16,572 bases of DNA, taken from UHGV virus genome UHGV-1353571; one strand, 5' to 3'. The notes under the pieces were generated by a model, which saw only the letters and a list, made by a program, of their open reading frames with translations, had not been told where the DNA came from and did no database searches. Shown here piece by piece: positions 3,363 to 13,767 of this stretch (its first letter is position 1; every line of letters starts with the position of its first letter). The position numbers and the translations under genes are program-made. Source of the DNA: a virus.

Positions 3363-3864
3363 TACTTTTCTCCAGTTCATAATCGCGCTCCACAACGTAT
3401 TGGTAGACACGCATCTTAATATAGTCAGCACTGCCTGCTGAAGACAGCACCATCCATCCACTACTAAGGGCATTCATCTTATATTGACCAACACCCTCTT
3501 GAAAATAACTTTTAATCTGTTCCAGCTTTCGCACACGATGATAATACGAGATGAGTTCGCCGATGACAATACAATCCGGATAATGCTTTTCCAATGTATT
3601 GATGTTGCGGTGAACATATACGGGTAGAACTTCTTCATCGTCGATAGGGCTGTAGTATGGGTCTACGATGACCACTTGTAGACCATAACGCAGCAGGTCT
3701 TTGACACCCATCCGACAGAACTTATAATCTTCGTGTTTCATTGCCACATGGAGGATATTCTCTTTCTTGGCATAATCGGTCAGGAAGATAAAGAAGTCTG
3801 TGTTGGGATCGGGATATTGTATAGACAGTTCTTTGCCTATTTCACTAAAACAAAATCCGCGCAT
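3340..3864 (-). CDS. Hypothetical protein (about 174 aa)
   Basis: ORF-track ORF 3340..3870. The ATG at 3864 (MRGFCF...) has GAGGA at a workable 6-nt spacing; the ATG at 3870 sits too close to that Shine-Dalgarno. No P-loop or other recognised motif. Confidence 0.55.
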   Translation of the reverse strand: MRGFCFSEIGKELSIQYPDPNTDFFIFLTDYAKKENILHVAMKHEDYKFCRMGVKDLLRYGLQVVIVDPYYSPIDDEEVLPVYVHRNINTLEKHYPDCIVIGELISYYHRVRKLEQIKSYFQEGVGQYKMNALSSGWMVLSSAGSADYIKMRVYQYVVERDYELEKSNAKRKTR

Positions 3865-3913
3865 TTTCATTCCTCGTTATAATTACTCTTACAATATACC
3901 GTGGAGATACATT

Positions 3914-4720
3914 ATGAATTTACCATCATTGCCCAGAACAGAAAAGACATATAAAAGCGACTTTTGGCCTACTGTGATCAAATATCGCGCCTTTACTGCG
4001 GGGCAACAAACTTTGTTACTTCAGGTGTCAGATCCGCAAACGCCGATTGAAGAACGCGCAGCCATGATGGAGAGTCTCTTTAGCGAATGTGTAAATGCAG
4101 GTGCACCTTTCAGTAAACTGCCAATCGGCGTTGTTGAGGAAGTGTTCATCCGCATGCGCATGATCTCCATCGGTGAATTGATGAAGATTCGCTATAAGTG
4201 CAATAATCAGATTGAAGAAACGATCGATCTGGGAGATGGTCAAGAAAAGCGCCAGATGGTTCCCTGTGAGCAGGAACTGACTCTACCTATCCCGTTGAAC
4301 AACGTCAAATGCATTGCTCAGGACGGCTTCCGGGAGACGTTTGACCTGCCAGGTGGATATCACCTCAAGATGCGCCAACCTTCCTTCTCGGACGCTACGG
4401 CACTGTCTGATGCTGCAAGCGTTGAGATGATGCTGGCCACCTTTATCGACTGTCTATACGATGATGACGGTCAGGTTTGGAAGGTTGAGAATCCTGAAGA
4501 AATCGGAATCACTCCGGAAGAGGCTACTGAGCGCCGCCGTGTGAAAGAAGCGTTTGTTGAGTGGGTGAAGGATAACATCGAATCAGATGTTATTGACAGC
4601 ATTACGAAGAACTTCTTCCATAAAATACCGCGCATCCACTACAAGAGTTCGATCAAGTGTCCGAAATGTGGTAAGGAGCACAAAATCGAATTCAATAGTA
4701 TTAATGAAATTTTCATTTAA
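3914..4720 (+). CDS. Hypothetical protein (268 aa), first gene of the plus-strand late block; possibly virion/baseplate-associated by position
   Basis: Internal ATG at 3914 within ORF 3800..4720, preceded by GGAG about 8 nt upstream (MNLPSLPRTEK...). The C-terminus carries a CPKCG zinc-ribbon-like half-motif. The structural role is inferred from synteny only. Confidence 0.6.
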   Translation: MNLPSLPRTEKTYKSDFWPTVIKYRAFTAGQQTLLLQVSDPQTPIEERAAMMESLFSECVNAGAPFSKLPIGVVEEVFIRMRMISIGELMKIRYKCNNQIEETIDLGDGQEKRQMVPCEQELTLPIPLNNVKCIAQDGFRETFDLPGGYHLKMRQPSFSDATALSDAASVEMMLATFIDCLYDDDGQVWKVENPEEIGITPEEATERRRVKEAFVEWVKDNIESDVIDSITKNFFHKIPRIHYKSSIKCPKCGKEHKIEFNSINEIFI

Positions 4721-4752
4721 TGTTTGAAACTGATTTATTATCCTACTTCGTG

Positions 4753-4869
4753 ATGTGTGATGAATTGAAGTTACACGGCTATAGCATATTTGAAATCAAC
4801 GAGTCGATGCCATGGCATCTTGACTTGTTAACCGAAGCCCTCAAGGTCAGGTTGTCTAAGAAACAGTAA
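4753..4869 (+). CDS. Possible small ORF (38 aa) ending at the terminator
   Basis: ATG at 4753 through TAA at 4867..4869 (MCDELKLHGYSIFEINESMPWHLDLLTEALKVRLSKKQ). No convincing Shine-Dalgarno. The stop abuts the terminator hairpin. Low confidence. Confidence 0.25.
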   Translation: MCDELKLHGYSIFEINESMPWHLDLLTEALKVRLSKKQ

Positions 4870-4893
4870 TCCCGCTTCGGCGGGATTTTTATT
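4868..4893 (+). terminator. Intrinsic terminator (plus strand)
   Basis: Seen in sequence: stem (AA)TCCCGC / GCGGGA(TT) with a UUCG tetraloop, followed by TTTTTATT. Confidence 0.65.
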
Positions 4894-5190
4894 GGCTTAA
4901 CTGTAAAATCGGTTAACACGCACTCTCTTTACCTGAAATTGCTATAATGGGCTTGTTCCCGAGTCATTTGTTGGTGTTTGTCTGTTTTGAATCAGATTGT
5001 CAGTAAAATACCATTTTTCAAGGAGTGTTCTGGGGTGTACAGTTATTGCCTCGCCCTTATGCCTCCATGGCATTGGAATGGTGCTGCCCGCATAGGGCGG
5101 TTTGATGAGCGAAGCGAATAGGATCGAATAAAACAAATAAAATGAACGGAAGCAGAGCTTCCTATAGTATATAAGGCAAAATCAGCTGCG

Positions 5191-5198
5191 CATAAATA
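5191..5198 (+). promoter_or_regulatory. T4-late-promoter-like box CATAAATA upstream of the gp5-like gene
   Basis: Seen in sequence: CATAAATA about 35 nt upstream of the ATG at 5233, a 7/8 match to the T4 late consensus TATAAATA. Baseplate genes are late genes in T4. Inference. Confidence 0.3.
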
Positions 5199-5232
5199 CC
5201 TTCAAATCCTTGTTTGACAACCGGAACTCAAT

Positions 5233-6843
5233 ATGTTAGACAATATGAGATGGTTTTACGGCACCGTTGAAGATGTCAACGATCCAGACCAAAACGGGCG
5301 CGTCGCCGTCCGCATCTATGGCGTACACACCGACGATCCCGTCCTCCTGCCTACAGACAAACTCCCATGGGCGAAGGTACTGATGCCTGCTTCAAATGCC
5401 TCCTCTGCTGGTTTAGGTTGGTCTCCAACGGGTATCATTCCTGGTACTGAGGTTATGGGGTTCGCCCTTGACGAAGCATACCAGAATTTACGCATCACCT
5501 GGACTTGGACTGGTTCAAGTCCTACTGATGGTGCCGACACAAACCCACTGGCTCTCGGGCAGGTCGTTCAATCTGTGGAACGTCAGGCGTACAACGCCGT
5601 CACTGACGTTCCTGTGAAACAAGAAGACGAACCACAACCAGATCCACAACCACCTGTTGGCGGGTATGATCCAGAGAAGTGGATGACAATCGCTCGTGGC
5701 GAATTGGGTATCAAGGAGTATGCCGGAAAGTTCAACAACAACCCGCGCATTATAGAATATCACAAGACAACCTCCCTTGGTGCTTCTGAAGATGAAGTGT
5801 CGTGGTGTGCGGCGTTCGTGGGTTGGGTTATGATACAGGCTGGATACACGTCTACACGCTCCGCTCTTGCCCGATCTTACCTTACATGGGGCACTCCACT
5901 GTCAGCACCACAATATGGCGCTATCGTAGTCTTCCGGCGTGGTAACAACCCTACATTTGGACACGTAGCGTTTGTACAGAAGTTCGATGCAAACTATGTC
6001 TGGTGTATTGGTGGCAACCAATCCGATTCAGTGAAGGTCAGTCGTTTCAGACGTTCTTCGGTCTTGGGTTATCGTTGGCCTGGTCCTGCTAACACAGCCA
6101 CAGCCGCGCCTGCGCAGCAGAATGGTAAATGGTCAGAACCTATCCCAGATCGTACTCCAAAGGAACAACCGACTCCGGCTCCTACTGGGCGAGTACAGGA
6201 TATTGACAACACTGGAGAAACTATGGTTCCGGCTGCGGGTGGCTCCAAATACCCGTACAATAACGTCATGGTGTCCCGAGCTGGGCATATTATGGAAGTG
6301 GATGACACCCCTGGTGGTGAACGTCTTCATTGGATGCATAAGTCTGGGTCTTACAAGCAAATGTTGCCGGATGGTGATGTGGTCAACAAGTCCGTCAAAG
6401 ACCACTATGACCTGACGATGTTCAACAAGCGTTATTATGTCGGCGGGGACCACAACCTGACGGTCAAAGGAACTGAAGTTCAGCGCAAGACAGGTGAGGT
6501 CTATCATTTGCATTCCAACAATTACTCCAACGTGGTTGCGGGCACAGCGCTGATGAAATTCAGTGACTTGGCGGAAATGCAAGCGCAGAATATTCTGCGC
6601 ATTATCTGCGAGACTCTGGAGGTCGGTGGGACATTGAAGGTTCCTAAGATTCTAACGACTGAGATAATCGCTGACAAACTGACTGTCGCTCAGACGATCA
6701 ATGGTAACATCATATATGCCGAAGGTGCTGGTCGCGCTTCTTCTCTGTCAGGTGCAACTCCTGCATCCCCTACGGGTCCGGGTGAGATTGACATCAAGGC
6801 AGAATTAAAAGACAATGGTGGTAATTTCGGCACCAAAGAGTAA
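5233..6843 (+). CDS. gp5: gp5-like baseplate central spike protein with an internal CHAP/NlpC-P60-type cell-wall peptidase domain
   Basis: The N-terminus (WFYGTVEDVNDPDQNGRVAVRIYGVHTDD...LPWAKV) resembles the T4 gp5 N-terminal OB domain. The central domain has the CHAP-type catalytic Cys/His context (SWCAAFVGW ... GHVAFV ... IGGNQSD). The C-terminal roughly 220 aa is unassigned. No T4-type lysozyme motif seen. Confidence 0.7.
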   Translation: MLDNMRWFYGTVEDVNDPDQNGRVAVRIYGVHTDDPVLLPTDKLPWAKVLMPASNASSAGLGWSPTGIIPGTEVMGFALDEAYQNLRITWTWTGSSPTDGADTNPLALGQVVQSVERQAYNAVTDVPVKQEDEPQPDPQPPVGGYDPEKWMTIARGELGIKEYAGKFNNNPRIIEYHKTTSLGASEDEVSWCAAFVGWVMIQAGYTSTRSALARSYLTWGTPLSAPQYGAIVVFRRGNNPTFGHVAFVQKFDANYVWCIGGNQSDSVKVSRFRRSSVLGYRWPGPANTATAAPAQQNGKWSEPIPDRTPKEQPTPAPTGRVQDIDNTGETMVPAAGGSKYPYNNVMVSRAGHIMEVDDTPGGERLHWMHKSGSYKQMLPDGDVVNKSVKDHYDLTMFNKRYYVGGDHNLTVKGTEVQRKTGEVYHLHSNNYSNVVAGTALMKFSDLAEMQAQNILRIICETLEVGGTLKVPKILTTEIIADKLTVAQTINGNIIYAEGAGRASSLSGATPASPTGPGEIDIKAELKDNGGNFGTKE

Positions 6844-6916: not shown

Positions 6917-7297
6917 ATGAAAGAGTATAAAGATGTCGATCTGAAGTTCGGCATGCATCCAGTGACCAAAGATGTCACCATGAAATCAGGTGTGTATGCT
7001 GTCTTACAATCCGTGCGGAATATTGTTATGTCTTCAGTCGGGGACTGGCCCACTTATCCTGGGATCGGCGCGGGGCTTTATGGGCTGCTGGGTGAAAACA
7101 CGACACCGACTATCCAGGTAGATGTGAAGAACAAAGTAGAGGACGCCATCGCCCTGTATGAACCCAGAGCAGAGGTAGAAGAAGTCACGGTGAGTCTGTC
7201 AGAGGATTACCATTCTCTGGGCGTGACCATCACATTCTATGTGGTCAACAATCCAGATCCAATAACAGACACCGTGTGGTTGAAAAGGACGAATTAG
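6917..7297 (+). CDS. gp25: gp25-like baseplate wedge protein
   Basis: Translation ...GENTTPTIQVDVKNKVEDAIALYEPRAEVEEVTV...TFYVVNNPDPITDTVWL parallels T4 gp25 (...ENMTPLTADTVERNIESAVRNYEPRIDKLAVNV...RFSVIDNPDDIEQIKL). GAGAGGA Shine-Dalgarno about 7 nt upstream of the ATG. Confidence 0.75.
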   Translation: MKEYKDVDLKFGMHPVTKDVTMKSGVYAVLQSVRNIVMSSVGDWPTYPGIGAGLYGLLGENTTPTIQVDVKNKVEDAIALYEPRAEVEEVTVSLSEDYHSLGVTITFYVVNNPDPITDTVWLKRTN

Positions 7298-12937: not shown

Positions 12938-13732
12938 TTAACTGAAACTCTTGTATGCTGCTGCGAGCTTCTTGTCGTACTGGTTCTTGGCATACGCCGG
13001 ACCATTATAGCGCCGTGCAAATTCAGACCAGTTCTTGTCCTTCAGAGCCTGCCAGAGCTTGGCGTCAGCCTTGATGAACTTCACGAATGCCATCAAATGA
13101 GCACGTTCTCCTGTCAGGAAGTCGTTGAACATCTCCTTGGCGTTGGCATATCCACAGACCTGGCAGTTGAATCCCATGATCTGGAAGAGACCGTAAGAGG
13201 CGCTCTCGTACGCACAATCCTCATCAATGTTGATGGCCGCATGAAGTCGATCCAACTCCGCGTCGCCTCCCGTGTACCCGCCTGCGGAAGGACTGACCAA
13301 CGTCGGGTACATATGTCCCATGGCATTCGCCCGAGCCTGTCCGAACTTCGCCATCAGCTTTTTATACATGATGTGGCGCTCAAATAATGTCTTGATCTTA
13401 CCTGATTTGGTGAAGCCCGTGCCGCGCGACTCAACCTGATTCACCGCCTTGACAGAGGCAAGGTCAACACCAAGATCGTTAGCAGCATCAATCAGGTCTG
13501 ACTCAGTTAGATGATCCTGATGGGCGTCTCCGGCGTTGCGAATAGCATAGGAGGTCTTCGGACCCACGATACCATCAATGACAAGCCCCGCACCCGCCTG
13601 AACAGTCTTGACGGCGTTCTCTGTTGCCTTGCCAAAGATACCATCAGCGACGAGGGTGAAGCCGATTTTGTTGAGGCTATCCTGAAGTGCCTTCACTTCA
13701 GTGCCACGGTTGCCAAGTTTTAGAATGGCCAT
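12938..13732 (-). CDS. Endolysin: N-terminal peptidoglycan-binding domain plus C-terminal N-acetylmuramidase-like domain
   Basis: The N-terminus LKLGNRGTEVKALQDSLNKIGF...DGIFGKATENAVKTVQ fits the PG_binding_1 repeat pattern. The C-terminal region (...YESASYGLFQIMGFN...) resembles the phage muramidase family seen in modular Gram-negative phage endolysins. The preferred start is ATG at 13732 (MAILKLG...) with GGAGGT about 8 nt upstream, not the ORF-track start at 13750. Confidence 0.75.
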   Translation of the reverse strand: MAILKLGNRGTEVKALQDSLNKIGFTLVADGIFGKATENAVKTVQAGAGLVIDGIVGPKTSYAIRNAGDAHQDHLTESDLIDAANDLGVDLASVKAVNQVESRGTGFTKSGKIKTLFERHIMYKKLMAKFGQARANAMGHMYPTLVSPSAGGYTGGDAELDRLHAAINIDEDCAYESASYGLFQIMGFNCQVCGYANAKEMFNDFLTGERAHLMAFVKFIKADAKLWQALKDKNWSEFARRYNGPAYAKNQYDKKLAAAYKSFS

Positions 13733-13736
13733 AAGA

Positions 13737-13767
13737 AAATACCTCCACAATGAATGCAGAGGTATTT
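13737..13767 (-). promoter_or_regulatory. Hairpin sequestering the endolysin Shine-Dalgarno; overlaps a late-promoter-like TTTAAATA box
   Basis: Seen in sequence: 13737..13745 (AAATACCTC) and 13759..13767 (GAGGTATTT) form a perfect 9-bp stem with a 13-nt loop. In the minus-sense mRNA the 3' arm is GAGGUAUUU, which contains the Shine-Dalgarno, 4 nt before the AUG. Minus-sense TTTAAATA (plus 13763..13770) overlaps the 5' arm. Confidence 0.45.

What the first reader, a model, noticed from the sequence alone, without database searches (positions are those of the whole stretch)
5233..6843. Central spike (gp5-like) carries a CHAP/NlpC-P60-type peptidase in place of the T4 lysozyme domain
The N-terminal OB-like domain matches gp5, but the enzymatic module has Cys/His CHAP-type signatures (SWCAAFVGW, GHVAFV, IGGNQSD). 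That implies the virion-borne wall-degrading activity is a peptidase or amidase, not a glycosidase. The C-terminal roughly 220 aa (from ...SKYPYNNVMVSRAGHIMEVDD) does not look like the T4 beta-helix repeats and may be a different needle or receptor-interacting module.
Basis: partly seen in the sequence, partly recalled or inferred. Interest (0 to 1): 0.5.

Follow-up and report, generated by a model that had tools for sequence, protein, structure and literature searches.

The report
Phage tail spike with peptidase domain

Summary
The ORF at 5233..6843 (+), 536 aa, is the gp5-type central spike of an Agtrevirus-like Ackermannviridae phage. It is 98-99% identical to Escherichia phages PC3, PH4 and AV101.

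- **Domains.** Profile searches confirm a Gp5 OB domain and a CHAP / TIGR02594 domain (residues 150-282). No lysozyme family matches.
- **Catalytic residues.** Cys192, His244 and Gly-Gly-Asn-Gln 260-263 are invariant in 98 homologues.
- **Insertion.** Enzyme-less relatives show the domain is a discrete insertion of about 170 aa, at the same place as T4's lysozyme. It is the most conserved part of the protein.
- **Virion.** The LIMEstone1 orthologue was found in virions by mass spectrometry.

Residues 338-432 are clearly homologous to the base of the T4 beta-helix. Only the last ~95 aa lack T4 similarity, and they form a tip module shared with other gp5-like spikes.

The OB + CHAP layout already appears in the 2011 PhiSH19 genome paper and in database annotations, so this is known. 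What remains open is the activity, the bond cleaved and the nature of the tip; no PAAR protein was detected.

The parts
5233..6843 (+). Gene for the gp5-type baseplate central spike (536 aa plus stop codon)
   Evidence: ORF list and translation. [quoted passage not shown] 98-99% nt identity to annotated gp5 genes of Escherichia phages PC3, PH4 and AV101. The LIMEstone1 orthologue ORF061 (86.6% nt, 93.5% aa identity) is an MS-confirmed virion protein.
5233..5520 (+). N-terminal OB-fold domain (residues 1-96), the part that seats the spike in the gp27-type hub
   Evidence: Pfam Gp5_OB, E 1.9e-12. Residues 3-93 align with T4 gp5 residues 6-101 at 41% identity.
5521..5679 (+). Linker 1 (residues 97-149): conserved NPLALGQ motif and helix, then a Pro-rich spacer that begins the insertion
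   Evidence: N104, P105, L106, G109 and Q110 are invariant in 14 Ackermannviridae orthologues. The NPL..G motif is also present in most enzyme-less relatives (diverged in P0130), and the insertion starts at about residue 129.
5680..6078 (+). Inserted cysteine peptidase domain (residues 150-282; TIGR02594 family, CHAP/NlpC-P60 superfamily)
5806..5808 (+). Codon of Cys192, the predicted catalytic nucleophile
   Evidence: Invariant in 14 orthologues and in 98 TIGR02594-domain proteins. Aligns with the Cys of the CwlO motif 'DCSSFV' and the Tae3 motif 'GRCAEYV' in profile-to-PDB alignments. That these are the catalytic Cys of those enzymes is from general knowledge of the family.
5962..5964 (+). 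Codon of His244, the predicted general base
   Evidence: The G-H pair is invariant. Aligns with 'GHVGIY' of CwlO and 'GHMAIY' of Tae3.
6010..6021 (+). Codons of Gly260-Gly261-Asn262-Gln263; Asn262 (or Gln263) is the likely third polar residue of the triad
   Evidence: G-G-N-Q is invariant in 98 sequences. Assigning it the third triad role is an inference from its position (18 residues after His, at the end of the next strand) and from the papain-like Cys-His-Asn/Glu pattern. It was not measured on coordinates.
6082..6240 (+). Linker 2 (residues 284-336): Pro/Ala-rich, contains the conserved KWSEPIPDRT motif
   Evidence: E302 and P303 are invariant even in enzyme-less relatives. Collinearity with those relatives resumes at about residue 297, and residues ~310-336 are an extra spacer absent from them.
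6241..6561 (+). Base and proximal part of the triple-stranded beta-helix needle (residues 337-443), homologous to T4 gp5C
   Evidence: phmmer: residues 337/338-432 match 9f4a residues 385-464 and T4 residues 385-477, E 6e-14 / 3e-13. BLASTP E 3e-16. T4 domain limits are from PMC4576200.
6562..6840 (+). Distal tip module (residues 444-536), with the conserved motifs LKVP, I.G...YA..AG.A and DNGGNF; no similarity to T4
   Evidence: No Pfam hit. hhalign vs T4 gp5 probability 0.1%. A profile search of 1.84 billion proteins finds the module at the same position in other gp5-like spikes: P0122, P0126, P0127 and P0130 without an enzyme, P0123 with a C-terminal Amidase_2. It contains no His, so it is not a P2 gpV-type iron apex.
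5191..5199 (+). CATAAATAC, a T4-late-promoter-like -10 element 34 nt upstream of the ATG
   Evidence: Single occurrence in the window. The equivalent position in LIMEstone1 is annotated 'putative late promoter'. Weak evidence on its own: 48 of 200 shuffles give at least one match.
4868..4887 (+). Intrinsic-terminator-like hairpin plus T-run that closes the upstream gp26-like operon, so gene 5 appears to have its own promoter
   Evidence: Terminator scan. LIMEstone1 annotates a terminator at the same place.
3914..4720 (+). Context: gp26-like baseplate hub subunit
   Evidence: Pfam T4_baseplate, E 1.5e-46. Annotated in AV101 and LIMEstone1.
6917..7297 (+). Context: gp25-like baseplate wedge subunit immediately downstream
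   Evidence: Pfam GPW_gp25, E 3.1e-08. The same gp5-gp25 order occurs in a distant 170-kb metagenomic phage contig.
12938..13750 (-). Context: the phage's endolysin, a glycosidase (PG_binding_1 + N-acetylmuramidase PF11860)
   Evidence: Pfam E 6.4e-59 and 1.4e-14. Annotated 'putative endolysin' in LIMEstone1.

Best explanation
The gene encodes the central spike of the contractile tail of an Ackermannviridae (Agtrevirus-like) phage. By analogy with T4 gp5, it is a trimer. The N-terminal OB domain docks it into the gp27-type hub. The C-terminal half forms an intertwined beta-helical needle that is driven through the outer membrane when the sheath contracts. Looped out between the two is a papain-like cysteine peptidase (TIGR02594 family, NlpC/P60-CHAP superfamily) with Cys192 as nucleophile, His244 as base and Asn262/Gln263 as the third polar residue. 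Once the needle has carried it into the periplasm, this domain is predicted to cut peptidoglycan peptide stems or cross-links locally, opening a hole for the tail tube. The gamma-D-Glu-mDAP bond is the most likely target, and the mDAP-D-Ala cross-link the second most likely. It does the job that the GH24 lysozyme domain does in T4, but attacks the peptide part of the wall rather than the glycan. The phage's endolysin is a muramidase, so the two wall enzymes of this phage cut different bonds. Shown here: domain identities, the insertion boundaries, conservation of the catalytic residues, the fold, and purifying selection. Shown by others: the orthologue is present in virions. Inferred: trimeric assembly, enzymatic activity, bond specificity, and timing of action.
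Against: No enzymatic assay exists for this protein or, as far as the searched literature shows, for any TIGR02594 member. Bond specificity cannot be read from the fold. The structural neighbours include DL-endopeptidases, DD-endopeptidases (MepS, Tae3) and CHAP amidases. The best PDB sequence hit of the domain profile is the T6SS effector Tae3, and only at E 0.014. The full-length model was poor (pLDDT 41.6), so the trimer and the placement of the enzyme relative to the needle are unverified. Whether the protein is cleaved on assembly like T4 gp5 is unknown.
Confidence: 0.8

Rival explanations
1. Same spike and same domain, but the enzyme is an N-acetylmuramoyl-L-alanine amidase (the other classical CHAP activity). 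It would strip whole peptide stems from the glycan rather than acting as an endopeptidase.
Confidence: 0.12
2. The domain is retained as a non-catalytic module (peptidoglycan binding, or a structural collar around the needle) and the spike breaches the wall mechanically.
For: Some contractile phages lack enzymatic spike domains altogether, and close relatives of this spike have no enzyme (P0122, P0126, P0127, P0130). So an enzyme is not obligatory for this spike type.
Against: The nucleophile Cys, the His and the GGNQ motif are invariant in all 98 sequences examined, including free-standing TIGR02594 proteins. The domain is under stronger constraint than the rest of the protein. Loss of catalysis usually goes with loss of these residues.
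Confidence: 0.04
3. The cysteine hydrolase acts on a non-peptidoglycan periplasmic substrate, for example the Braun lipoprotein-peptidoglycan link, or a small amide as in glutathionylspermidine amidase.
Against: These are much weaker matches than the wall endopeptidases. Free-standing TIGR02594 domains are fused to PG_binding_1, PG_binding_3/GH108 and LysM modules, or serve as predicted phage endolysins and T6SS wall effectors.
Confidence: 0.03
4. [quoted passage not shown]
For: Only the inherited annotation.
Against: No lysozyme or glycosidase family was hit in Pfam or NCBIfam. No T4 similarity exists between residues ~94 and ~337. No glycosidase appears among the listed fold matches.
Confidence: 0.01

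Closest known systems
Bacteriophage T4 gp5 (tail-associated lysozyme; PDB 1K28)
   Same: N-terminal OB domain (41% identity over ~95 aa). An enzymatic domain looped out between the OB domain and the needle. A homologous base of the C-terminal beta-helix (residues 338-432 vs T4 385-477). Baseplate gene neighbourhood.
   Different: The enzyme is a papain-like cysteine peptidase (TIGR02594/CHAP) instead of a GH24 lysozyme. The distal ~95 aa of the needle has no T4 similarity. No gp5.4-type PAAR cap was detected in the family. Whether the protein undergoes T4-like maturation cleavage is unknown.
Orthologues in Ackermannviridae (Vi01, PhiSH19, CBA120-like, Ag3, LIMEstone1, AV101)
   Same: Same gene, same length class, same synteny, 58-99% amino-acid identity. 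PhiSH19's table already lists 'Gp5 OB family & CHAP domain'. The LIMEstone1 orthologue is an MS-confirmed virion protein.
   Different: Nothing essential. Serratia and Erwinia members carry an extra ~75-aa C-terminal extension.
Hub- or tail-borne NlpC/P60-CHAP hydrolases of Gram-positive contractile systems (Staphylococcus phage 812/K hub protein ORF56, PDB 9EUF/9EUM; diffocin Hub-Hydrolase CD1368, PDB 8V3W; phage Andhra tail-tip lysin)
   Different: Those systems attack thick Gram-positive walls and use different scaffolds (hub or Tal proteins), not a T4-type OB + beta-helix spike. According to a 2017 review, peptidase-type virion lysins had been demonstrated for only one phage of Gram-negative bacteria, phi6 (PMC5380687).
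T6SS wall-degrading effectors (Tae families; TIGR02594 effectors next to VgrG in Stenotrophomonas; evolved VgrG3)
   Same: The same TIGR02594/NlpC-P60 domain delivered into the periplasm of a Gram-negative target by a contractile spike (PMC13055248). Tae3 is the best PDB sequence hit.
   Different: There the domain is a separate cargo protein or a C-terminal extension of VgrG with a cognate immunity protein. Here it is an internal insertion in a phage spike, and no immunity gene is evident.
Other gp5-like spikes from metagenomes with swapped or absent enzymes (P0122/P0126/P0127/P0130 none; P0123 C-terminal Amidase_2; P0027 C-terminal TIGR02594; P0029 and P0061 VgrG3-like muramidase; P0024 OB + CHAP without a needle)
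   Same: Same OB domain and needle base. P0122-P0130 also share the distal tip module.
   Different: The identity and position of the enzymatic module vary. This shows that the wall-degrading domain is an exchangeable cassette.

Membership tests
gp5-type baseplate central spike (T4 gp5 family) | N-terminal gp5 OB-fold domain | tested here: met
   Pfam Gp5_OB 48.1 bits vs cut-off 25. 41% identity to T4 gp5 residues 6-102.
gp5-type baseplate central spike (T4 gp5 family) | C-terminal beta-helical needle homologous to gp5C | tested here: met
   Residues 338-432 match T4 residues 385-477, E 3e-13. BLASTP collinear to residue 493, E 3e-16. The distal 95 aa is not T4-like.
gp5-type baseplate central spike (T4 gp5 family) | Trimeric, intertwined assembly seated in a gp27 hub | not testable with these tools
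   Only monomer prediction was available, and the full-length model was poor (pLDDT 41.6). A gp27 homologue exists in LIMEstone1.
gp5-type baseplate central spike (T4 gp5 family) | Encoded among baseplate genes and present in the virion | tested here: met
   Flanked by gp26-like and gp25-like genes. The orthologue was detected by virion MS. For this exact phage, presence in the virion is inferred.
gp5-type baseplate central spike (T4 gp5 family) | GH24 lysozyme domain between OB domain and needle | tested here: not met
   No lysozyme hit in Pfam or NCBIfam. No T4 alignment across residues ~94-337. The fold is NlpC/P60.
gp5-type baseplate central spike (T4 gp5 family) | PAAR (gp5.4) protein capping the needle tip | tested here: not met
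   tblastn of T4 gp5.4 found 1471 phage records, but Salmonella and Dickeya phages are not among the 10 genera listed, so fewer than 36 Salmonella records. This is despite at least 162 Salmonella Ackermannviridae records. A Pfam scan of 129 small ORFs covering 150 of 152.4 kb of LIMEstone1 gave no PAAR_motif hit, while the T4 control did hit. Sensitivity is limited.
TIGR02594 / CHAP (PF05257) / NlpC-P60 papain-like cysteine peptidase superfamily | Profile score above the curated threshold | tested here: met
   TIGR02594 129.6 bits vs 70.55. CHAP 43.2 bits vs 26.
TIGR02594 / CHAP (PF05257) / NlpC-P60 papain-like cysteine peptidase superfamily | Conserved catalytic Cys and His (plus a third polar residue) | tested here: met
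   W-C 191-192, G-H 243-244 and G-G-N-Q 260-263 are invariant in 98 sequences. The Cys and His align with those of CwlO and Tae3. The identity of the third residue is inferred.
TIGR02594 / CHAP (PF05257) / NlpC-P60 papain-like cysteine peptidase superfamily | Papain-like alpha+beta fold | tested here: met
TIGR02594 / CHAP (PF05257) / NlpC-P60 papain-like cysteine peptidase superfamily | Cys-dependent hydrolysis of a peptidoglycan amide bond | not testable with these tools
   Requires biochemistry. No assay of any orthologue was found in the searched literature.
P2 gpV / phi92 gp138-type spike apex | His-rich (HxH) iron-binding apex at the C-terminus | tested here: not met
   Residues 444-536 contain no histidine. 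No Pfam apex or spike hit.

The most novel reading that the evidence does not exclude
The distal ~95 aa (residues 444-536, ending in the invariant DNGGNF motif) may be a PAAR-independent spike-tip module shared by a clade of gp5-like spikes. In Ackermannviridae it might be capped by the stand-alone Sf6-type 'tail needle knob' protein instead of a PAAR protein. That knob protein (LIMEstone1 ORF169, PF16532) is present in virions. This would be a podovirus-style needle knob on the tip of a myovirus spike. The evidence does not exclude this reading, but it does not test it either: the knob could sit elsewhere in the particle.
Probability: 0.12. Interest if true: 0.6.

Novelty: already known. Interest (0 to 1): 0.3.

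Why it matters
**Annotation.** Most records call this protein a 'tail lysozyme', which misstates its chemistry. It should be annotated as a central spike with an NlpC/P60-CHAP (TIGR02594) peptidase domain.

**Biology.** It is a clear example that the wall-degrading module of a T4-type spike is an exchangeable cassette. Related spikes carry a lysozyme, a cysteine peptidase, an amidase or a VgrG3-like muramidase, or no enzyme at all. The same domain is also used by T6SS effectors.

**Application.** Demonstrated peptidase-type virion lysins from phages of Gram-negative bacteria are rare. The domain is small, highly conserved and could be tested as an enzybiotic module.

**Limits.** None of this is conceptually new. 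The open questions are experimental: whether the domain is active, which bond it cuts, whether it is needed for infection, and what forms the tip.

Tried and rejected
- **Full-length AF2 model.** Built from 14 orthologues, it was unusable (pLDDT 41.6). No structural statement is made about the trimer, the linkers or the tip.
- **C-terminal part alone.** Pfam on the last 203 aa and the last 97 aa gave nothing credible (SipL, E 0.067). hhalign of the tip-module profile against T4 gp5 gave probability 0.1%.
- **PDB by sequence.** phmmer with the peptidase domain gave only marginal hits (E 0.15). The profile reached Tae3 at E 0.014. The fold search was needed.
- **Canonical T4 late promoter.** TATAAATA is absent from the window. 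Only CATAAATAC lies upstream of the gene, and it is not significant on its own.
- **Rfam.** No hit anywhere in the window. The 343-nt intergenic stretch upstream does not fold better than shuffles (z -1.37 and -0.31).
- **Literature.** No biochemical work on this domain in Ackermannviridae was found. Several 'CHAP' text hits were false ('Chaplin', 'chaperone'). The family review does not mention the spike enzyme.
- **Iron-binding apex.** A P2 gpV-type apex was considered for the tip and rejected, because the tip contains no histidine.
- **Receptor-binding role.** Considered for the tip and rejected for lack of evidence. The module is conserved across spikes of unrelated uncultured phages rather than varying with host. 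Receptor binding in this family is attributed to the tailspike complex (PMC11721090).
Full report
**What is there**

The window carries an ATG-initiated ORF at 5233..6843 on the + strand, 536 aa.
- SWCAAFVGW at residues 190-198
- GHVAFV at residues 243-248
- IGGNQSD at residues 259-265

At the DNA level the gene is 99.1% identical to Escherichia phages PC3 and PH4. It is 98.6% identical to AV101 and 90-91% identical to Shigella phage Ag3. In total 138 phage records match, all infecting enterobacteria. AV101 is classified in Ackermannviridae, Aglimvirinae and is described as an Agtrevirus (title of PMC10791037).

The gene neighbourhood in the window is:
- a gp26-like hub subunit at 3914-4720 (Pfam T4_baseplate, E 1.5e-46)
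- a 49-aa ORF, a terminator and a 363-bp spacer
- this gene
- a gp25-like wedge subunit at 6917-7297
- ribonucleotide reductase, PhoH and a muramidase-type endolysin at 12938-13750 (-)

**Domain identities**

Pfam gives Gp5_OB (residues 39-96, E 1.9e-12) and CHAP (residues 187-262, E 5.7e-11). Both are above the gathering scores. NCBIfam gives TIGR02594 over residues 150-282 at E 8.7e-38, 129.6 bits against a cut-off of 70.55. [quoted passage not shown]

Against the PDB, T4 gp5 and a related spike (9F4A) match in two separate stretches only. Residues 1-93 match T4 6-101. Residues 337/338-432 match 9F4A 385-464 and T4 385-477. BLASTP against T4 gp5, fetched from NC_000866, confirms this. It gives 41% identity over the OB domain and a collinear 28% alignment of 339-493 with T4 386-534 (E 3e-16). 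Nothing aligns across residues ~94-337.

The T4 domain limits are 1-129 for the OB domain, 174-339 for the lysozyme and 389-575 for the beta-helix (PMC4576200). The unmatched middle of this protein therefore sits exactly where T4 has its lysozyme.

**The middle domain is a cysteine peptidase of the NlpC/P60-CHAP superfamily**

- **Conservation of key residues.** In 14 orthologues spanning 58-99% identity, Cys192, His244, Asn262 and Gln263 are invariant. In a 98-sequence alignment that adds free-standing TIGR02594 proteins, the only invariant columns include W-C (191-192), G-H (243-244) and G-G-N-Q (260-263).
- **Alignment to known enzymes.** A profile of the domain aligns its Cys and His with the 'DCSSFV / GHVGIY' motifs of CwlO and the 'GRCAEYV / GHMAIY' motifs of Tae3. 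The E-values are marginal (0.014-0.3).
- **Viral structure library.** The BFVD model of the Serratia phage 3M orthologue superposes at TM 0.94. Other phage 'tail associated lysozyme', TIGR02594 and CHAP proteins follow.

**It is an insertion, and it is under constraint**

I searched a profile of the last 107 residues against 1.84 billion representative proteins. This retrieved gp5-like proteins of 324-360 aa (P0122, P0126, P0127, P0130) whose only Pfam domain is Gp5_OB. Aligned with the query, they are collinear with residues 1-~128 and ~297-532. They lack residues ~129-296 entirely, and also lack a further spacer at ~310-336. The peptidase and its Pro-rich linkers are thus a discrete cassette.

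Other relatives carry different cassettes:
- a C-terminal TIGR02594/NlpC-P60 domain (P0027)
- a C-terminal Amidase_2 plus S74 chaperone (P0123)
- a VgrG3-like muramidase, internal (P0029) or C-terminal (P0061)
- OB + CHAP with no needle (P0024, P0025, P0028)

P0024 lies next to a gp25 gene in a 170-kb metagenomic phage contig, the same synteny as here.

Within Ackermannviridae the peptidase is the best-conserved part of the protein. Mean pairwise identity is 0.82 and 53% of columns are invariant, against 0.57-0.69 and 22-32% elsewhere. Between this phage and LIMEstone1 it shows 47 synonymous and 7 non-synonymous codon differences. This argues for a working enzyme.

**The C-terminal half**

The opposite holds for residues 338-432. 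They are the second-best T4 match in the protein and correspond to the four-stranded antiparallel base (T4 389-427) plus the first intertwined turns of the beta-helix.

Beyond residue ~444 there is no detectable T4 similarity (hhalign probability 0.1%) and no Pfam hit. This distal module is nevertheless conserved in the enzyme-less relatives. The shared motifs are ..L.VP.I....I..D.L(S/T)V...I.G...(Y/F)A..A..A......P, followed in most of them by (D/T)(N/T)GG(N/D)(F/Y).

In those relatives the stretch that AF2 weakly predicted as a helix in the query (451-465) contains Pro and Gly and VxG-like repeats. I therefore read the whole region as a continued, tapering beta-helix. This is an inference, not a result. 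The region has no histidine, so it is not an iron-binding P2 gpV-type apex. Nothing suggests receptor binding.

**Tip partner**

T4's needle is capped by the PAAR protein gp5.4. A tblastn search with gp5.4 against 50,697 phage records hit 1471 records, down to 25-30% identity in jumbo and Campylobacter phages. Salmonella and Dickeya phages are not among the ten commonest genera, so there are fewer than 36 Salmonella records. Yet at least 162 Salmonella Ackermannviridae records exist.

I then scanned 129 ORFs of 75-200 aa from 150 of the 152.4 kb of LIMEstone1 against Pfam, with T4 gp5.4 as a positive control. Only the control hit PAAR_motif. At this sensitivity the family appears to lack a PAAR cap.

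The same scan showed that LIMEstone1 ORF169, an MS-confirmed 'unknown structural protein', is a stand-alone Sf6-type tail-needle knob (PF16532, E 2.5e-27). A 'putative tail needle knob' is also in the Sajous1 virion proteome. Whether it sits on this spike is untested. I record this as the most novel reading not excluded.

**Virion location and expression**

LIMEstone1 ORF061 has 86.6% nt and 93.5% aa identity to this gene and is the same length. It was detected in purified virions by mass spectrometry, with 2 unique peptides and 7.46% coverage (PMC3296691). It is annotated 'confirmed structural protein', with a 'putative late promoter' 37-42 nt upstream of the ATG. The window has CATAAATAC at the equivalent place, 5191-5199.

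CsCl-purified Sajous1 virions also contained a 'tail associated lysozyme' (20 spectra; PMC10892097). I did not verify that this is the orthologue. Its gene number next to a baseplate wedge gene makes that likely.

**How it most likely works**

By analogy with T4 gp5, which is established knowledge rather than something tested here, three copies form the spike at the centre of the baseplate. Sheath contraction drives the needle through the outer membrane. The peptidase domains, carried at the base of the needle, then reach the peptidoglycan and cut peptide stems or cross-links locally, so the tube can pass.

I cannot assign the bond. The closest folds are DL-endopeptidases (gamma-D-Glu-mDAP), but DD-endopeptidases (MepS, Tae3) and CHAP amidases are also close. 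My estimate is about 50% DL-endopeptidase, 25% DD-endopeptidase and 15% amidase.

The phage's endolysin is a muramidase with a peptidoglycan-binding domain. Entry and exit therefore use different chemistries.

**Novelty**

The architecture is not new. The PhiSH19 genome paper (2011) lists the 541-aa orthologue as 'Tail-associated lysozyme ... [quoted passage not shown] The precomputed Pfam tags of all orthologues are PF05257 + PF06714. NCBI names some copies 'TIGR02594 family protein', and one record says 'cell wall-associated hydrolase'.

What I did not find is any discussion or experiment on it:
- The family review is silent.
- A 2017 review of virion-associated enzymes states that endopeptidase activity had been shown for only one phage of Gram-negative bacteria, phi6 (PMC5380687).
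- A 2021 lysin survey mentions Gp5_OB-bearing entries only in passing.

The finding is therefore real and correctly interpreted in its main point. It is already on record, and of moderate-to-low interest until someone measures the activity.

Noticed in passing
window 4720-5232: A 49-aa ORF (4720-4869) and the 363-bp non-coding spacer after it (4870-5232) are more conserved at the DNA level than the genes around them. Identity to Dickeya phage LIMEstone1 is 98.7% and 93.1%, against 80.7% for the gp26-like gene and 86.6% for gene 5. The spacer is also 94.8% identical to Salmonella phage SKML-39 and ~72% to Kuttervirus phages. It has no Rfam hit and no significant RNA fold (z -1.37 / -0.31). It may be a long regulatory leader or late-promoter region, or an undescribed small RNA.
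   Followed up: partly
L007:31105-31620 (+) (LIMEstone1 ORF169; outside the window): An MS-confirmed 'unknown structural protein' of 172 aa is a stand-alone Sf6-type tail-needle knob (PF16532, E 2.5e-27). This domain is otherwise known at the tip of podovirus tail needles, and its place in a myovirus particle is unknown. No PAAR-motif protein was found among 129 small ORFs of the same genome.
   Followed up: partly
L007:35190-35645 (+) (LIMEstone1 ORF173; outside the window): Another MS-confirmed small structural protein carries an ADP-ribosyltransferase domain (ART-PolyVal, E 5.2e-12). This suggests an enzyme packaged in the virion and injected with the DNA, as with T4 Alt.
   Followed up: no
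window 12938-13750 (-): The phage endolysin is PG_binding_1 plus N-acetylmuramidase PF11860 (E 6.4e-59). AV101 annotates it only as 'putative peptidoglycan binding protein'. It is a glycosidase, complementary to the peptidase on the spike.
   Followed up: partly
P0014, P0017, P0020, P0022, P0023 (Serratia phage 3M, Erwinia phage phiEa2809 and metagenomic relatives), alignment A1 columns 545-624: These orthologues continue for ~75 aa beyond the DNGGNF motif that ends the protein here. The extension is a low-complexity Ser/Thr/Ala stretch followed by a conserved ~35-aa block ending in ..S(D/N)G..WE... Something can evidently be appended after the 'tip'.
   Followed up: no
P0123 (998 aa, metagenomic): This protein has a gp5-like spike core with the same tip module at residues 256-334. 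It is followed by an Amidase_2 domain (E 7.5e-14) and a Peptidase_S74 intramolecular-chaperone domain (E 4.9e-12). It is thus a spike-tailfibre hybrid, with the wall enzyme placed after the needle.
   Followed up: partly
L004:5001-5960 (P0024) on a 170,684-bp JGI contig: A 319-aa protein has the gp5 OB domain plus the TIGR02594/CHAP domain but no beta-helix needle at all. It lies directly upstream of a gp25 gene. An 806-aa protein with a weak GH19 hit follows gp25. This may be a spike split over several genes.
   Followed up: partly
window 3800-4720 (+): The mechanical ORF list starts the gp26-like gene at GTG 3800 (306 aa). AV101 and LIMEstone1 annotate an 807-nt gene equivalent to 3914-4720, and the Pfam match begins at residue 52 of the long form. 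A perfect sigma-70-like promoter (TTGACA-16-TATAAT) lies at 3701-3728.
   Followed up: no
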